Source: an uncultured bacterium (GTDB lineage: Bacteria; Patescibacteriota; Minisyncoccia; Phycocordibacterales; CAIZLB01). Taken from it: DNA of 64,000 nt. This document shows positions 5,306 to 15,292 of this stretch, one piece after another. The translations under genes and the position numbers were made by a program. The notes beneath the pieces are model-generated. The model was not told the origin of the DNA. It saw nothing but the letters and a program-made list of their open reading frames with translations, and did no database searches. The number at the start of each line of letters is the position of its first letter. The stretch's first letter is position 1. Where the stretch lies: positions 27,897 to 91,896 of the forward strand of contig CAIJKW010000030.1 in NCBI GenBank assembly GCA_903821355.1. The letters are read 5' to 3'.

Positions 5306-7774
5306 ATGGCAAAAAAGATAGAAACTCCAGTAGAAGTGATTTCAGAAAACTCTGACAAAATCCAAGACAGAAATTTATCGCTTGAAATGAGGAAGTCATA
5401 TATTGACTATGCCATGTCTGTTATTACAGATCGTGCTCTTCCTGATATTAGAGATGGACTTAAACCAGTTCACCGTCGTATTTTGTATGCGATGAACGGT
5501 ATGCGTTTGACCGCATCTGCAAAAACAGTTAAGTCTGCCAAAGTTGTTGGAGAGGTTATGGGTAATTATCACCCACACGGAGATGCGGCTATCTATATGT
5601 CTATGGTCAACATGGCGCAAGATTTTACACTTCGTTATCCTTTGATTGTTGGTCAGGGTAACTTTGGAACTGTAGACGGTGATCCTCCTGCTGCTCAACG
5701 TTATACTGAAGCAAAAATGTCACGTCTTTCATCAGAGCTCTTAAGAGATATTAATAAGCAAACAGTTAATTTTGTTCCTAACTATGATGGATCAAGTAAG
5801 GAGCCCACAGTTTTACCTACTGCTGTTCCAAATCTGTTGTTGAACGGAGTTTTGGGTATTGCTGTTGGTATGGCTACAAACTTTCCTCCTCATAATCTAA
5901 GAGAGATTGTGGATGCCACAACTCACTTAGTTGATAATAACGATGCTTCATCGGAAGATTTGATGCAATTTATTAAAGGTCCAGATTTTCCACTTGGAGG
6001 AATTGCTTACAATGAAAAAGATATTGCAACCGCATGTATTCATGGAAGAGGCGGAGTTGTGGTTCGTGGTGAAGCTGAAATTATTGAAGAAAAAGCTGGT
6101 CAATCAAAAATTGTAATTACTTCAATCCCGTATCGCGTTAATAAATCGACTCTCATTGAAGCTATTGCTGATCTAGCTCGTGAAAAGAAACTTGAGGGTA
6201 TTAAAGATTTGCGCGATGAGTCAACAAAAGACATTAGAATTGTTATTGAATTAAAGAGTGGAAGTTATCCTCAAAATATTTTAAACTTCCTATACAAGCA
6301 CACGCAACTTGAATCAACTTTCCACTACAACATGGTCGCGCTCGTTGATGGTGTTCCGCAAACTCTCTCTATTAAGTCATGTTTGGAAGAATTTATTAAG
6401 CACAGAAAAGAAGTTATTAAGAGAAGGACAGAGTTTGATTTAAGAGAAGCACAAGAAAGAGAACACATTTTACTTGGTTTGAAGAAGGCGTTGGATCATA
6501 TCGATGCAATTATTAAAACCATTAAGGCTTCAAAAGATACTCCTACAGCTCATGTAAATTTGATGAAGGAGTTTAAGTTCTCAGATAGACAAACTACCGC
6601 TATTTTGGATATGAAGTTGCAAAGACTTGCGGGACTCGAAAGAAAGAAAATTGAAGATGAGTTGAAGGCCGTTCAAGCATTCATCAAAGAGTGTGAAGAC
6701 ATTTTGAAAAATCCAAAGAGAGTTTTGAAGATTATCAAAGATGAGCTTGCTGATATTAGAGAGCGTTTTGGTGATAATAGAAGGACAAAGATTATTAAGC
6801 ATGCAGCAAAGAACTTCTGTATAGAGGATGTTATCCCAGATGAGGAGAGCGTGCTTGTGCTTACAAGTGGCGGATATATTAAGAGAACTGATCCTGATGA
6901 ATACAGAAAGCAAAAAAGAGGTGGTGTTGGTGTAGTTGATTTGGATACTAAAGAAGAGGATTTTATAACTCATCTTATAACAACAACAACTCATAGTGAT
7001 TTGCTGTTCTTCACAGATAAAGGAAAGGCATATCAGATAAAGATGTACGATATTCCAGAGGGTAAGCGTGCTACTCGTGGAAAATCTATTATGAACTTTT
7101 TGTCTCTTTCTGATAATGAGAAAGTGACGTCTGTTCTGCCAATGCCAAAAGAAATTAAAAAGGGAAGTGGTCTTAGTTTGTTCTTGGTTACAAAGCAGGG
7201 AACTGGAAAGAAAGTATCAGTCGAGAGCTTCTTGGATGTTAGAAGAAGTGGAATCATTGCAATCAGACTTGATGCGGGAGATGAGTTGGTTTCCGCTTCA
7301 TTTGTTGAAAAGAAAGATTCTGTGATGGTTGTTGCATCTGATGGTCAGTCTATTAGATTTGACGAAGGTGATGTTAGAGAAATGGGTCGATCTGCTGGAG
7401 GTGTGCGTGTAATGAAATTGGATAAGGATGTGAGTGTCGTTGGAGCTGACACTATTGCAAAAGACGTAACTGATGCAACTGTGATGGTCATGTCTTCAAA
7501 TGGTTATGGAAAGAAAACTCCAATTAAGGAATATAAGATTCAAGGTCGCGGCGGAAGCGGAATCAAGACTGTGAAAGTCACTCCAAAGACAGGGGACTTG
7601 ATTTCTGCAAGAATTCTAACAGCAGGGCTTGAAGAGCTTGTTGCGATTTCAAAGAAGAGTCAAGTTATCAGATGTGATTTGAAAGAAGTTCCAACTCTTG
7701 GACGTGATACACAGGGTGTGAGAATTATGAAATTGCGCGAAGGGGATGGGTTGGCTTCATTGATTTGCTTATAG
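5306..7774 (+). CDS. gyrA: DNA gyrase subunit A
   Basis: Classic GyrA N-terminus ([33 protein letters not shown]), 822 aa, C-terminal beta-pinwheel repeats. Confidence 0.95.
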
Positions 7775-13465: not shown

Positions 13466-13555
13466 CCATACTTAGTTGGTGTTGTGGAGCTTTCGGGAAC
13501 TCATTTGCTGGTAGTATAGCATAAGTGGGTGGAAGTCAAGCATGATAAATAAAAT

Positions 13556-13587
13556 AAAAAATATGCAGACTTGCGTCTGCATATTTT
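13556..13587 (-). terminator. Terminator downstream of the minus-strand tRNA cluster
   Basis: Palindromic hairpin atatgcagac-ttgc-gtctgcatat flanked by A/T runs. Confidence 0.55.
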
Positions 13588-13594
13588 TCATGTG

Positions 13595-13676
13595 TGGGCG
13601 AGGAGGGACTCGAACCCTCAATCCTTACGGAACTAGTTCCTAAGACTAGCGCGTATACCAATTCCGCCACTCGCCC
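13595..13676 (-). tRNA. tRNA-Leu (anticodon UAG)
   Basis: Reverse complement GGGCGAG…CTCGCCCA forms a cloverleaf with anticodon loop CTTAGGA, a long variable arm and T-loop GGTTCGAGTCC. Confidence 0.8.
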
Positions 13677-13791
13677 ATATTTTGACTTTGCTTTATATCA
13701 GCTTTTTGGTTTGCTGAAATTTAAGAATTCAATATCTATATGAAGTTTAAGATTCTGGCTTAAATGTCTTCATAGAGTTATCGAACTCTTG

Positions 13792-13864
13792 TCCGCCCGG
13801 TAGGATTCGAACCTACGACCGTTCACTTAAGAGGCGACTGCTCTACCAACTGAGCTACGGGCGG
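13792..13864 (-). tRNA. tRNA-Lys (anticodon CUU)
   Basis: Reverse complement CCGCCCGTAGCTCAGTTGGTAGAGCAGTCGCCTCTTAAGTGAACGGTCGTAGGTTCGAATCCTACCGGGCGGA. Anticodon loop CTCTTAA. The top pair of the anticodon stem is non-Watson-Crick (G·A). Confidence 0.7.
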
Positions 13865-13926: not shown

Positions 13927-14241
13927 CTATAATTCTAAGAAGATTATTGAGCAAATTCCTAGAACCATACCGACAATTTGAAGCGGGCTTAATCCTTCGT
14001 GAAAGAATACGTAACTTACCAGCAGTAATGTAGCGACGTTAAATATAACAAATATTATTGAAGCGATAGCTATGTTTTTGTATTTGAAACTAAAAGATAG
14101 AAATATTAAGGCTATTACATAAATTATTAATCCAATGACAAAAAACCAAGTGTTATTTTTTGAAACCCATTCTTTCATAAAAATATCCCCAGCTGTTAGA
14201 ACTAAACCTCCCGCTAAAACTAAGATTATCCCAGTATTCAT
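13927..14241 (-). CDS. small multidrug-resistance/DMT-like 4-TM membrane protein
   Basis: 104 aa with four hydrophobic helices (SMR/EamA-half-like topology), embedded between tRNA genes. Confidence 0.45.
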   Translation of the reverse strand: MNTGIILVLAGGLVLTAGDIFMKEWVSKNNTWFFVIGLIIYVIALIFLSFSFKYKNIAIASIIFVIFNVATLLLVSYVFFHEGLSPLQIVGMVLGICSIIFLEL

Positions 14242-14249
14242 TTTATTGG

Positions 14250-14332
14250 TGCTCAGGGCGGGACTCGAACCCGCACAGGCTTTCGCCTACAACATTTTAA
14301 GTGTTGCGTGTCTACCATTCCACCACCCGAGC
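14250..14332 (-). tRNA. tRNA-Leu (anticodon UAA)
   Basis: Reverse complement GCTCGGGTGGTGGAATGGTAGACACGCAACACTTAAAATGTTG… Anticodon loop CTTAAAA, long variable arm, T-loop GGTTCGAGTCC. Confidence 0.8.
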
Positions 14333-14800
14333 TTTTTTATTTAAGCCTCTATGAGTTGGCTGTAAACTGTGACAATTTGGACAAAGTATCTGTAGGTTAG
14401 TTAGTCTATTGTCTCTACTATCACCGTTTATGTGATCTAACTCAAGAGGTAATCTACCATCTTTTGTGGTTTTGTTCCACCCGCACATCTCACACTTTTT
14501 TTCCTTTAAACCATCTTTAAATAATCTTTTCTTAAGTTTATAACTTTGAAATGAGCTGCCTTTTACTAAAATTTCTTTAGTTGGAATAAGTGGTATTTTA
14601 TTTTAAAATTTTTTGCCCTTACTCCAACCTCTGCCTGTAAAATGTTTTATGGATAGGCCGTATTCTAAAACATATTTCTTGATTTGAGAATAGTTTCCAC
14701 CAGCTTCAACTAATCCAAGTCTTTTCAAAACTTGTCTATAGCTTGTGGAATCAGCAACTGATTTTATTAAATTGTCTTTTGACCACTTTCTTTTTCTCAT
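14312..14800 (-). pseudogene. HNH endonuclease gene interrupted by a single in-frame TAA (plus 14603-14605); C-terminal part overlaps tRNA-Leu(UAA)
   Basis: Upstream ORF 14606..14800 (MRKRKW…SKGKKF*) is in the same frame as a downstream reading frame. That frame encodes …CEMCGWNKTTKDGRLPLELDHINGDSRDNRLTNLQILCPNCHS…, a canonical HNH motif. Confidence 0.6.
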
Positions 14801-14841
14801 TTAAGAATAACAAACAAATATGTAAAAACTACTTTTACATG

Positions 14842-14914
14842 AGGCGTAGGCCGGGATCGAACCGGCGTATAACGATTTTGCAGATCGCCGCGTTAACCAC
14901 TTCGCCACTACGCC
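14842..14914 (-). tRNA. tRNA-Cys (anticodon GCA)
   Basis: Reverse complement GGCGTAGTGGCGAAGTGGTTAACGCGGCGATCTGCAAAATCGTT…GGTTCGATCCCGGCCTACGCC. Anticodon loop CTGCAAA. Confidence 0.8.
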
Positions 14915-14956: not shown

Positions 14957-15292
14957 CTATTTTAGCATTCTGTCTATATTCTGTCTATTGATTTCGCCGA
15001 TATCTATTTTGAAATTAAAGAAGGGAATTATGCCCAACTTTGAATGACTTTTAACATAACTTCTGAATTCATTGCATTTTCTGTTGGCAAATTCTTCAAC
15101 CACAGGACCTTTGTCCTCAGGAAGAACACTAAGAAGAATTGTGGCCTTCTTGGCTCTATCGCCAAGAATAACATTGGTCACAGTTACAAGGGAAGTTCTA
15201 TTAGCTTCTCTTGCCATAAATTCCATCGCCAATTCTTTGACGATGTGAATTGTTCGCTCATCTCTATGTGGTTTTACTATTTTTTCTCTCAT
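14957..15292 (-). CDS. rbfA: ribosome-binding factor A
   Basis: 111 aa located immediately downstream of infB, the usual infB-rbfA order. Sequence is RbfA-like (…NRTSLVTVTNVILGDRAKKATILLSVL…). Confidence 0.7.
   Translation of the reverse strand: MREKIVKPHRDERTIHIVKELAMEFMAREANRTSLVTVTNVILGDRAKKATILLSVLPEDKGPVVEEFANRKCNEFRSYVKSHSKLGIIPFFNFKIDIGEINRQNIDRMLK

What the first reader, a model, noticed from the sequence alone, without database searches (positions are those of the whole stretch)
14312..14800. HNH endonuclease gene killed by one in-frame TAA inside the tRNA cluster, with its C-terminus overlapping tRNA-Leu
ORF 14606-14800 (minus) ends at TAA (plus 14603-14605). The same frame continues immediately and encodes …CEMCGWNKTTKDGRLPLELDHINGDSRDNRLTNLQILCPNCHS…, a textbook HNH nuclease motif. 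It ends at a TAG that lies inside the 5' half of tRNA-Leu(UAA). The result is a 162-codon HNH endonuclease, typical of homing or intron-associated enzymes. It sits between tRNA-Cys and tRNA-Leu and is interrupted by a single nonsense codon. Candidate explanations are a recent pseudogene, programmed readthrough, or a sequencing error. Its position inside a five-tRNA cluster and its overlap with a tRNA gene suggest a decayed selfish element (inference).
Basis: seen in the sequence. Interest (0 to 1): 0.5.

Follow-up and report, generated by a model that had tools for sequence, protein, structure and literature searches.

The report
Broken homing endonuclease beside tRNA-Leu gene
A small DNA-cutting "selfish" gene sits just in front of a leucine tRNA gene and carries one premature stop codon; the same gene occupies that exact spot in many ultra-small (Patescibacteria) bacteria and has relatives in phage tRNA clusters, so the case is ordinary in kind but shows a widespread, apparently undescribed, site-specific pattern.

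Summary
On the minus strand, one frame (14800→14312) reads 65 codons, TAA (14603-14605), 96 codons with a complete HNH motif, then a TAG inside the D-loop of tRNA-Leu(UAA). The cluster has four tRNAs, not five.

It belongs to a large family of about 160-aa HNH proteins. In 78 of 80 genomes from different species, the gene ends within a few bases of, or inside, tRNA-Leu(UAA). Relatives chosen without regard to HNH mostly have tRNA-Cys and tRNA-Leu(UAA) 3-98 nt apart with no HNH (45 of 57); only 2 of 57 carry it. Phage homologues also lie in tRNA clusters, often next to tRNA-Leu.

"Decayed" overstates the damage. Two syntenic orthologues are intact (Ser or Glu at that codon). dN/dS is about 0.09 on both sides of the stop, as for IF2, and every invariant residue is kept. 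The TAA lies in a disordered inter-domain linker. It is either a very recent nonsense mutation or an assembly error; reads are needed to decide. Recoding is unlikely, because TAA is this genome's commonest genuine stop.

HNH-bearing tRNA-Leu alleles usually carry a flipped C30-G40 pair.

The parts
14959..14987 (-). Promoter-like site (TAGACA-17 nt-TAAAAT, with TG before the -10) at the end of rbfA, just upstream of tRNA-Cys. It is a candidate promoter for the whole tRNA operon, including the HNH gene.
   Evidence: 10 of 12 matches. The total number of such sites in the region does not exceed the shuffles, so only the position is suggestive (inference).
14841..14914 (-). tRNA-Cys(GCA), first gene of the conserved operon tRNA-Cys / tRNA-Leu(UAA) / tRNA-Lys(CUU) / tRNA-Leu(UAG).
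   Evidence: ARAGORN and Rfam, 64.4 bits. The same order downstream of infB-rbfA is seen in most IF2-selected relatives.
14820..14840 (-). AT-rich hairpin (ATGTAAAA-GTAG-TTTTTACAT) between tRNA-Cys and the HNH start codon. No Shine-Dalgarno sequence is visible before the ATG.
   Evidence: Read from the sequence. The stem is also present in the orthologous locus L001. Function not tested.
14606..14800 (-). HNH gene, codons 1-65: the N-terminal three-helix domain, a putative DNA-binding module.
   Evidence: The AlphaFold model of orthologue P0001 has helices 8-16, 21-27 and 34-46 at pLDDT above 90. Foldseek gives only weak matches to HTH DNA-binding domains.
14603..14605 (-). In-frame TAA (codon 66). 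It lies in the variable, low-confidence linker between the two domains.
   Evidence: The orthologues have TCT (Ser, L001) and GAA (Glu, L254) at this position. The model has pLDDT below 50 at residues 58-61 and a low block mean (59) for residues 61-70.
14315..14602 (-). HNH gene, codons 67-162: the HNH / beta-beta-alpha-metal nuclease domain. It has CxxC...CxxC zinc ligands, the D-H catalytic pair, and a conserved HRGxN tail.
   Evidence: Pfam PF01844, 29.2 bits against a cut-off of 21.4. All invariant columns of alignments A1 and A3 are kept. Strands 120-123 and 136-139 plus helix 141-145 appear in the model.
14312..14314 (-). TAG stop of the HNH frame, formed by tRNA-Leu positions 19-21 (D-loop GGTAG).
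   Evidence: The same overlap of -21 nt occurs in L001 and L055, and 44 of 78 family loci stop inside the tRNA.
14247..14332 (-). tRNA-Leu(UAA), uninterrupted. Its anticodon stem is CAACA/TGTTG, giving a C30-G40 pair (positions 14303 and 14293).
   Evidence: ARAGORN and Rfam, 59.4 bits. The C30-G40 pair is found in 66 of 81 HNH-linked alleles and 3 of 50 HNH-free alleles.
13927..14241 (-). A 104-aa small multidrug resistance (SMR) family ORF. It is a second, unrelated insertion in the same tRNA operon, between tRNA-Leu(UAA) and tRNA-Lys(CUU).
   Evidence: Pfam PF00893, 30.1 bits against a cut-off of 23.7. In most relatives these two tRNAs start about 100-200 nt apart.
13791..13864 (-). tRNA-Lys(CUU)
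13594..13676 (-). tRNA-Leu(UAG), last gene of the operon.
13554..13591 (-). Terminator-like hairpin (17-pair stem followed by a T-run) directly after tRNA-Leu(UAG).
   Evidence: This is a consensus match only.

Best explanation
The feature is a free-standing HNH homing-endonuclease-type gene. It has an N-terminal three-helix DNA-binding module, a flexible linker and a C-terminal HNH nuclease. It lies in the conserved Patescibacteria tRNA operon tRNA-Cys / tRNA-Leu(UAA) / tRNA-Lys / tRNA-Leu(UAG), directly against the 5' end of tRNA-Leu(UAA).

Shown here: it belongs to a large family that keeps this exact junction in many Patescibacteria. Most related genomes have the site empty. Phage homologues lie in tRNA clusters, often beside tRNA-Leu. 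The gene has been inherited vertically and kept under purifying selection in this lineage.

Inferred: the gene has no visible ribosome-binding site or promoter of its own, so it is probably transcribed with the tRNAs. The ORF runs into the tRNA, so RNase P maturation of tRNA-Leu would remove its stop codon and keep expression low, as proposed for T4 segB and T5 F-Tfl. When intact, the enzyme would nick or cut HNH-free tRNA-Leu(UAA) alleles. Repair from the HNH-bearing allele would then copy in the gene together with the adjacent 5' part of the tRNA. This would explain the linked C30-G40 allele.

In this genome a single TAA at codon 66, in the inter-domain linker, truncates the protein to the 65-aa N-terminal domain. 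This is most likely a very recent inactivating mutation, the expected fate of such a gene once it is fixed.
For: Family and domains: Pfam HNH is above threshold. More than 4000 homologues were found; the best 120 cover 90-100% of the joined protein. Orthologue P0001 matches PHROG 10822 'HNH endonuclease' over its full length (E 3.6e-46). The two-domain model has mean pLDDT 86.

Site specificity: 78 of 80 loci from different species have tRNA-Leu(UAA) on the same strand. The conserved HRGxN motif ends 2-35 nt (median 15) before tRNA position 1.

Empty sites: among 57 IF2-selected loci with tRNA-Cys and tRNA-Leu(UAA) in tandem, 45 spacers are shorter than 100 nt and only 2 carry the HNH. In L101 the extra DNA lies on the tRNA-Cys side, while the HNH still abuts tRNA-Leu.

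Phage relatives: all 5 annotated phage contexts I inspected have the gene wedged between tRNAs. Of 60 distinct viral-contig loci, about 50 have tRNAs within 2 kb. A tRNA-Leu lies directly downstream in 13 and directly upstream in 19.

Orthology and selection: L001 and L254 share infB-rbfA-tRNACys-HNH-tRNALeu and are intact. Against L001, dN/dS is 0.089 before the TAA and 0.095 after it, with IF2 at 0.082. HNH and IF2 are both 84% identical. In the 22 close HNH pairs where dS could be estimated, dN/dS is 0.05-0.16.

The stop is not programmed: TCT and GAA occupy that codon in the orthologues, and TAA, especially TAAA, is the commonest terminator of long ORFs here.

Allele link: C30-G40 occurs in 66 of 81 HNH-linked alleles against 3 of 50 HNH-free ones (p = 1e-18). 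Counting IF2 clusters instead of loci gives 25:7 against 3:14 (p = 6.5e-5).

Precedent: T4 SegB and T5 F-Tfl, including stop-codon loss through tRNA processing (PMC2330249).
Against: No cleavage activity, target site or homing event has been shown for any member of this clade.

At short range, HNH identity tracks IF2 identity and dN/dS is as low as for a housekeeping gene. This fits long vertical persistence and possibly a host-beneficial role, rather than the classic cycle of invasion, decay and loss.

The patchy distribution could come from many losses rather than transfers. I made no tree reconciliation.

The HNH-free sample covers only relatives of this window's IF2, so the C30-G40 association may still be partly phylogenetic. 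One HNH-bearing lineage (L083) lacks C30-G40, and three HNH-free loci have it.

The TAA cannot be told apart from a consensus or assembly error: the source genome is not in the searchable collections.

The promoter and terminator matches are no more numerous than in shuffled sequence.
Confidence: 0.6

Rival explanations
1. The gene is intact in the organism, and the TAA is a sequencing, assembly or strain-consensus artefact. The true codon would be a sense codon such as TCA (Ser) or GAA (Glu), and the window encodes a functional 162-aa HNH endonuclease.
For: Everything except this one codon looks functional. All invariant residues are kept and dN/dS after the stop (0.095) equals that before it (0.089). 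There are no frameshifts. Both syntenic orthologues are intact. A single base change from GAA, or from TCA, gives TAA.
Against: Substitution errors are uncommon in consensus assemblies, and nothing else in the neighbourhood looks damaged (IF2, RbfA and the tRNAs are intact). The stop falls in the one part of the protein that varies in sequence and length, where mutations of all kinds accumulate. Inactivating mutations are the expected fate of homing endonuclease genes, by established knowledge of their life cycle.
Confidence: 0.27
2. The HNH protein is not selfish. It is a domesticated, host-beneficial nuclease tied to the tRNA operon, inherited vertically from an early Patescibacteria ancestor and lost many times. 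The TAA is one such loss in progress.
For: dN/dS is 0.05-0.16 in every close pair where dS could be estimated. HNH identity tracks IF2 identity among close relatives. The infB-rbfA synteny is kept in 44 of 80 HNH loci. Across distant lineages the protein is more conserved than IF2 (about 62% against 46% mean identity).
Against: Only 2 of 57 HNH-blind related loci carry it, so it is dispensable. The same family occurs in phage tRNA clusters. The invariant feature is the DNA junction with tRNA-Leu(UAA), not any partner gene. The linked tRNA allele is what co-conversion or target specificity predicts.
Confidence: 0.12
3. The TAA is functional. Low-level readthrough or recoding would give mostly the 65-aa DNA-binding domain and a trace of full-length nuclease, as a way of limiting toxicity.
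For: The stop lies exactly in the inter-domain linker, so both products would be folded units. The downstream half is under purifying selection.
Against: The stop is not conserved in the orthologues (TCT and GAA) or in any of the 20 aligned homologues. TAA followed by A is the commonest genuine terminator in this window. No suppressor tRNA is present in the window. By established knowledge, UAA is read by both release factors and is the least leaky bacterial stop. There is no in-frame ATG/GTG/TTG restart before the catalytic motif.
Confidence: 0.03

Closest known systems
Phage tRNA-cluster HNH endonucleases (PHROG 10822; for example Erwinia phage Cronus gp286, Salmonella phage S124 orf94, Gordonia phage GodonK gp149, Synechococcus phage S-CRM01 g201)
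   Same: They are homologous over the full length, including the N-terminal domain (E 3.6e-46 to the PHROG profile; 32-44% identity by tblastn). They are of similar size (about 145-185 aa as annotated). They are wedged between tRNA genes with gaps of 0-3 nt or with overlaps, and often lie next to a tRNA-Leu.
   Different: Those genes are in lytic phage genomes and sit next to various tRNAs, on either side. The window's clade is chromosomal in Patescibacteria and is almost always fixed on the 5' side of tRNA-Leu(UAA). As far as my searches show, none of these phage proteins has been characterised biochemically.
Phage T5 F-TflI / F-TflII / F-TflIV (heg genes) in the T5 tRNA gene region
   Same: They are free-standing HNH-family site-specific endonucleases encoded among tRNA genes. 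Lowering of their expression through processing of the tRNA primary transcript has been proposed (PMC2330249). T5 hegA lies 24 nt after tRNA-Ile2 and matches the window family's HNH half at 46% identity.
   Different: Only the HNH half is shared. hegA is 227 aa, and its record notes other InterPro domains. The hosts and targets differ.
Phage T4 SegB (GIY-YIG homing endonuclease in the T4 tRNA cluster)
   Same: It works the way I infer this gene does. It is a free-standing gene between tRNA genes, transcribed within the tRNA precursor. Its ORF end coincides with the 5' end of the next tRNA, so tRNA maturation cuts between the last codon and the stop codon. It recognises a conserved tRNA-gene element and drives co-conversion of flanking tRNA genes (PMC2330249).
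   Different: Its nuclease fold is unrelated (GIY-YIG, not HNH). It is a phage gene, not a bacterial one, and it recognises the T-psi-C element common to many tRNAs rather than one particular tRNA.
Intron-encoded HNH endonucleases in Patescibacteria tRNA group I introns (tRNA-Asn position 35/36) and the tRNA-Leu(UAA) introns of other bacteria
   Same: They are HNH-family homing endonuclease genes associated with tRNA genes in the same phylum, and tRNA-Leu(UAA) is a classic target of mobile elements (PMC13011429).
   Different: Here there is no intron. The tRNA-Leu(UAA) is continuous and scores as a normal tRNA. The HNH lies upstream of it, and no group I intron was detected by Rfam.
McrA-type HNH nucleases (EcoKMcrA 6ghc, ScoMcrA 5zmm)
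   Same: These are the closest solved structures for the HNH domain, with the same CxxC...DH...N...CxxCH arrangement.
   Different: The similarity is weak (E 0.1-0.2 by sequence, Foldseek E 3.5e-3) and limited to the roughly 50-aa nuclease core. McrA enzymes are modification-dependent restriction enzymes with different DNA-recognition domains.

Membership tests
HNH / His-Me finger endonuclease superfamily (Pfam PF01844) | Profile match above the curated gathering score | tested here: met
   27.4 bits for the joined protein and 29.2 bits for the C-terminal half, against a cut-off of 21.4.
HNH / His-Me finger endonuclease superfamily (Pfam PF01844) | Catalytic D-H, the conserved Asn, the final His and two CxxC zinc-ligand pairs all present | tested here: met
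   The window sequence has CEMC...ELDHINGD...DNRLTN...CPNCH. All are invariant columns in A1 and A3 (C103, C106, D122/H123, N135, C140, C143, H144).
HNH / His-Me finger endonuclease superfamily (Pfam PF01844) | Beta-beta-alpha-metal fold | tested here: met
   The AlphaFold model of orthologue P0001 has strands 120-123 and 136-139 and helix 141-145 at pLDDT above 90. The best structural neighbours are McrA, Cap5, Gme HNH and T4 endonuclease VII, though all are weak.
HNH / His-Me finger endonuclease superfamily (Pfam PF01844) | Metal-dependent nuclease activity | not testable with these tools
   This needs biochemistry.
Free-standing homing endonuclease gene (tRNA-cluster type, as T4 segB and T5 F-Tfl) | Lies between genes, not inside an intron or intein | tested here: met
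   The flanking tRNAs are continuous and no group I intron is found in the window.
Free-standing homing endonuclease gene (tRNA-cluster type, as T4 segB and T5 F-Tfl) | Same insertion site in divergent hosts | tested here: met
   78 of 80 species-level loci have the gene abutting or overlapping the 5' end of tRNA-Leu(UAA).
Free-standing homing endonuclease gene (tRNA-cluster type, as T4 segB and T5 F-Tfl) | Related genomes with the site empty (presence/absence polymorphism) | tested here: met
   45 of 57 tandem tRNA-Cys/tRNA-Leu(UAA) loci have spacers of 3-98 nt without the gene, and 2 of 57 have it. L083 (with the gene) and L128 (without) share 83% IF2 identity.
Free-standing homing endonuclease gene (tRNA-cluster type, as T4 segB and T5 F-Tfl) | Horizontal spread, shown by disagreement with the host phylogeny | tested here: inconclusive
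   HNH identity plateaus at about 62% while IF2 ranges over 35-55%. At close range, however, HNH tracks IF2. No tree reconciliation was done.
Free-standing homing endonuclease gene (tRNA-cluster type, as T4 segB and T5 F-Tfl) | The enzyme cleaves the gene-less allele and is copied in by repair | not testable with these tools
   Only indirect support: the linked C30-G40 tRNA allele.
Free-standing homing endonuclease gene (tRNA-cluster type, as T4 segB and T5 F-Tfl) | Intact open reading frame (an active copy) | tested here: not met
   There is an in-frame TAA at codon 66. Orthologues P0001 and P0002 are intact.
Stop-codon recoding or programmed readthrough | The stop codon is conserved at that position in orthologues | tested here: not met
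   TCT in L001 and GAA in L254, and sense residues in all 20 aligned homologues.
Stop-codon recoding or programmed readthrough | The codon is used as sense elsewhere in the genome, or a suppressor tRNA is present | tested here: not met
   TAA ends 15 of 36 long ORFs in the window, and TAAA is the commonest four-base stop context. None of the 7 tRNAs in the window has a stop-reading anticodon. Only 64 kb of the genome could be examined.
Group I intron-encoded endonuclease in tRNA-Leu(UAA) | The tRNA gene is interrupted by a group I intron that carries the ORF | tested here: not met
   The tRNA-Leu(UAA) is continuous (86 nt by ARAGORN; Rfam 59.4 bits). The ORF is upstream of it, and there is no intron hit.

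The most novel reading that the evidence does not exclude
This HNH clade may be a chromosomal homing element, widespread in Patescibacteria, that specifically targets the tRNA-Leu(UAA) gene. It would persist for long periods by travelling with a cleavage-immune or co-converted tRNA allele in which base pair 30-40 of the anticodon stem is flipped from the usual G-C to C-G. If so, a selfish nuclease would be shaping the sequence of an essential tRNA across a major bacterial phylum. Related phage tRNA-cluster HNH genes would use tRNA-Leu genes as landing sites in the same way.
Probability: 0.3. Interest if true: 0.65.

Novelty: new member of a known kind. Interest (0 to 1): 0.42.

Why it matters
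For this window the practical result is an annotation. The two short ORFs at 14312-14800 are one HNH homing-endonuclease-type gene with a single premature stop, and the overlap with tRNA-Leu is normal for the family.

The wider pattern is more useful. A compact two-domain HNH nuclease is found at one precise junction, the 5' edge of tRNA-Leu(UAA), in many Patescibacteria, and its homologues sit beside tRNA-Leu genes in phage tRNA clusters. Many natural empty sites exist, and one tRNA allele is linked to the gene.

That gives a directly testable system for three questions: how free-standing homing endonucleases pick tRNA genes, how they persist in very small genomes, and whether they drive compensatory changes in tRNA stems. 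The enzyme is small, has a defined natural target and has thousands of natural variants. In four literature searches I found no description of this chromosomal association, but that does not prove it is unpublished.

Tried and rejected
- Same-species check. I looked for other assemblies of the same species to check the TAA. Exact-product look-ups of the 65-aa ORF, RbfA and IF2 of the window all found nothing. The closest metagenome relative (L093, IF2 86%) ends 393 nt after infB, before the HNH site.
- Second copy. There is no second or intact HNH copy in the window (tblastn).
- Genetic-code reassignment. Rejected: long ORFs are uninterrupted, and TAA is the commonest terminator.
- Restart after the TAA. 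The only in-frame ATG/GTG/TTG lies inside the CxxC motif.
- Group I intron or another structured RNA around the gene. Rfam finds only the four tRNAs at gathering threshold. Everything below threshold is noise, for example snoRNA- or plastid-type hits.
- Solved structures. Sequence search gave only McrA at E 0.1-0.2. Foldseek gave no hit with E <= 0.001, so no precise structural assignment of the N-terminal domain is possible.
- HNH remnants in the ten intermediate-length tRNA-Cys/tRNA-Leu spacers (132-1672 nt). None was found. Several of them (L112, L139/L140, L118) carry unrelated ORFs, two of which look like membrane proteins.
- In-frame single-stop scan. I scanned for adjacent ORFs joined by one in-frame stop as a measure of assembly quality. 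Antisense frames dominated the output, so it was uninformative.
- tRNA divergence in HNH-discordant pairs. tRNA-Leu(UAA) shows extra divergence in such pairs (15.0 differences against 8-10), but 33 of the 44 pairs involve one locus (L083). I treat this as suggestive only.
- C30-G40 in phage tRNA-Leu genes directly downstream of the HNH. Three of 8 tRNA-Leu(UAA) genes there have it, against 0 of 10 non-adjacent ones in the same loci. The numbers are too small.
Full report
**1. Checking the observation**

The minus-strand frame from 14800 to 14312 translates as 65 codons, TAA (14603-14605), 96 codons and TAG (14312-14314). The quoted HNH motif is present exactly as written.

ARAGORN and Rfam agree on tRNA-Cys(GCA) at 14841-14914 and tRNA-Leu(UAA) at 14247-14332, both on the minus strand. 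The last 21 nt of the frame are therefore tRNA positions 1-21, and the TAG is the D-loop GGTAG.

The cluster contains four tRNAs (Cys-GCA, Leu-UAA, Lys-CUU, Leu-UAG), not five, even in a permissive Rfam scan.

Pfam HNH (PF01844) is matched above its gathering score. The joined 162 aa match more than 4000 database proteins. Most are about 156-175 aa, and the best 120 cover 90-100% of the query. The two ORFs are therefore one gene.

**2. What the gene is: a family with one fixed address**

Several homologues end in ...ARVVEW or in other tails that are translated tRNA sequence. This prompted a systematic test.

- **Site specificity.** I fetched 80 loci, one per species, from many Patescibacteria lineages and a few MAGs with other labels. 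In 78 of them a tRNA-Leu(UAA) lies on the same strand, starting about 460-495 nt after the HNH start codon. The ORF's stop lies inside the tRNA in 44 loci and 0-20 nt before it in 34. The conserved HRGxN motif ends 2-35 nt (median 15) before tRNA position 1. A same-strand tRNA-Cys(GCA) lies within 300 nt upstream in 37 of the 80. The overlap with the tRNA is thus a family trait, not a peculiarity of this window.
- **Empty sites.** I then took a sample that was blind to the HNH: 80 metagenome loci chosen only by similarity to this window's IF2. They show a conserved arrangement, infB-rbfA-tRNA-Cys-tRNA-Leu(UAA)-tRNA-Lys(CUU)-tRNA-Leu(UAG). In 57 loci tRNA-Cys and tRNA-Leu(UAA) are in tandem. 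The spacer is 3-98 nt in 45 of them (overall median about 40 nt), so these sites are empty. Only two carry the HNH: L094, from the same species as L001, and L101. In L101 the extra DNA is on the tRNA-Cys side, while the HNH still abuts tRNA-Leu. The other long spacers show no detectable HNH remnant, and several carry unrelated ORFs. The gene is therefore dispensable, variably present, and inserted at a precise junction.
- **Phage relatives.** Orthologue P0001 matches PHROG 10822 ('HNH endonuclease') over its whole length (E 3.6e-46). tblastn finds 270 phage records. In all five annotated contexts I opened, the gene is wedged between tRNA genes:
  - Erwinia phage Cronus: tRNA-Leu(TAG), 2 nt, HNH, 3 nt, tRNA-Tyr.
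  - Salmonella phage S124: tRNA-Ala, HNH, then an overlapping tRNA-Leu(TAG).
  - Aeromonas phage avDM5: HNH overlapping a tRNA-Leu.
  - Gordonia phage GodonK: tRNA-Leu, HNH, then an overlapping tRNA-Glu.
  - Synechococcus phage S-CRM01: directly after a tRNA-Leu.
- **Viral contigs.** Of 60 distinct IMG/VR loci, about 50 have tRNAs within 2 kb. A tRNA-Leu lies directly downstream in 13 and within 100 nt upstream in 19, and most of these are Leu(UAA).
- **Family size.** The family is large: 326, 10,033 and 19,611 clusters (at 50% identity) at E <= 1e-30, 1e-10 and 1e-3.

**3. Anatomy**

The AlphaFold model of P0001 (84% identical to the window protein; mean pLDDT 86) has three parts: an N-terminal three-helix bundle (residues 8-46), a low-confidence linker (about residues 55-70), and a C-terminal beta-beta-alpha-metal domain with two CxxC pairs.

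Structural neighbours are weak. McrA, Cap5, Gme HNH and T4 endonuclease VII match the nuclease. HTH DNA-binding domains match the N-terminal part.

The TAA is codon 66, inside the linker. That stretch varies in both sequence and length between orthologues (FSDKTP, IETSP, F*NKIP).

**4. History of this copy**

Two related lineages carry an intact gene in the same place, infB-rbfA-tRNA-Cys-HNH-tRNA-Leu(UAA):

- L001, seen on 17 contigs, with IF2 84% identical to the window's.
- L254, with IF2 83.5% identical.

Against L001, HNH identity (84%) equals IF2 identity (84.4%). dN/dS is 0.089 upstream of the TAA and 0.095 downstream, against 0.082 for IF2. In the 22 other close HNH pairs where dS could be estimated, dN/dS is 0.05-0.16, and their HNH identity tracks IF2 identity.

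The gene has therefore been inherited vertically and kept functional for a long time. The stop is much younger than the split from L001 (dS about 1), or it is not real.

The nearest relatives without the gene (L095-L097, IF2 65-69%) have empty sites. L096 has a 23-nt spacer containing CAC CGA GGA (H-R-G), and its anticodon stem is identical to the window's (CAACA/TGTTG). This may be the footprint of a deletion, but it is weak evidence (P about 0.05 from shuffles).

**5. The stop codon**

Recoding is unlikely for four reasons:

- The orthologues have TCT and GAA at that codon.
- TAA, and TAAA in particular, is the commonest terminator of long ORFs in the window.
- None of the window's tRNAs reads a stop codon.
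- There is no usable restart codon before the catalytic motif.

The window has no second copy of the gene. I could not find the same species in any searchable collection, so a real nonsense mutation and an assembly error cannot be separated. I put them at roughly 2:1.

**6. How it most likely works (inference, with precedent)**

No Shine-Dalgarno sequence precedes the ATG. The best promoter-like site lies upstream of tRNA-Cys, and a terminator-like hairpin follows tRNA-Leu(UAG). Neither signal is statistically compelling.

Co-transcription with the tRNAs is the simplest reading. It is what was shown for T4 segB. The authors of that work also proposed that tRNA maturation, by cutting between the last codon and the stop codon, limits endonuclease expression. 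They said the same had been proposed for the T5 F-Tfl HNH genes in the tRNA cluster (PMC2330249). The window gene has the same geometry.

One observation points to the target. tRNA-Leu(UAA) alleles linked to the HNH carry C30-G40 in 66 of 81 loci, against 3 of 50 HNH-free loci (p = 1e-18). Positions 30, 40, 29 and 41 are the four tRNA columns most strongly associated with HNH presence. Counting IF2 clusters instead of loci gives 25:7 against 3:14 (p = 6.5e-5).

By my own recollection, G30-C40 is the usual state in bacterial tRNAs. I did not test that here.

A flipped pair keeps the tRNA functional but changes two bases of DNA. This is what either an immunity allele carried along by co-conversion or a target preference would look like.

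Caveats: the HNH-free sample is phylogenetically narrower than the HNH-bearing one, and there are exceptions (L083; L096, L108, L168).

**7. Comparison with known systems, and novelty**

The gene works like the free-standing homing endonucleases of phage tRNA clusters (T4 SegB, T5 F-Tfl). It is a sequence relative of uncharacterised phage HNH proteins (PHROG 10822).

It is not an intron-encoded enzyme. The recent survey of tRNA group I introns in Patescibacteria describes HNH genes inside tRNA-Asn introns but not this free-standing gene (PMC13011429).

Four literature searches found no description of the chromosomal HNH/tRNA-Leu(UAA) association. That does not show it is unpublished.

**8. Verdict**

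It is wrong in degree. The gene is not decayed, and the overlap is normal for the family.

The window's copy is an ordinary new member of a known kind. The family-wide site specificity and the linked tRNA allele are the parts worth following up.

Noticed in passing
window 13927-14241 (-): A 104-aa SMR-family transporter ORF (PF00893, 30.1 bits) lies between tRNA-Leu(UAA) and tRNA-Lys(CUU). In most relatives these two tRNAs are adjacent. This tRNA operon therefore carries two unrelated inserted ORFs. Other relatives carry different ORFs, two of which look like membrane proteins, in the tRNA-Cys/tRNA-Leu spacer (L112, 191 aa; L139/L140, 93 aa).
   Followed up: partly
window 14293 and 14303 (tRNA-Leu positions 40 and 30); loci L008-L172: tRNA-Leu(UAA) genes that have the HNH upstream carry a C30-G40 anticodon-stem pair in 66 of 81 loci. 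HNH-free alleles are mostly G30-C40 (C-G in only 3 of 50). Positions 30/40 and 29/41 are the tRNA columns most associated with HNH presence.
   Followed up: partly
L096, the 23-nt spacer between tRNA-Cys and tRNA-Leu(UAA): The spacer CTCACCGAGGAATATATACAAAT contains CAC CGA GGA (H-R-G), resembling the conserved 3' end of the HNH ORF. This HNH-free locus also has the anticodon stem typical of HNH-bearing loci. It may be the footprint of a deletion of the gene (chance about 0.05).
   Followed up: partly
viral loci L173-L252: In phage contigs the homologous HNH gene is often found 60-90 nt downstream of a tRNA-Leu(UAA), on the opposite side from the Patescibacteria arrangement, as well as directly upstream of one. 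The link to tRNA-Leu holds in both orientations.
   Followed up: partly
proteins P0006, P0008, P0041, P0121 and others: Longer family members (about 215-350 aa) match the query in two or three separate stretches, which suggests repeated copies of the N-terminal three-helix domain in front of one HNH domain.
   Followed up: no
window 14820-14840 (-); L001 about 5960-5985: An AT-rich hairpin directly after tRNA-Cys is kept in the orthologous locus with a different loop sequence. It may be a processing or attenuation signal ahead of the HNH start codon.
   Followed up: no
loci L009, L021, L032, L038, L040, L074: Records labelled Elusimicrobia carry the same HNH/tRNA-Leu(UAA) cassette with a distinct tRNA-Leu type. 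Many other records of the set are labelled 'uncultured Gammaproteobacteria'. Either the family extends beyond Patescibacteria or these MAG labels are unreliable.
   Followed up: no
L083 versus L128, L163 and their clade (IF2 70-83% identical): Two very different tRNA-Leu(UAA) allele types, differing in the D-arm and the anticodon stem, co-exist within one closely related clade, while tRNA-Cys is nearly identical. This suggests that the tRNA-Leu(UAA) gene itself is exchanged or replaced.
   Followed up: partly
   Followed up: yes
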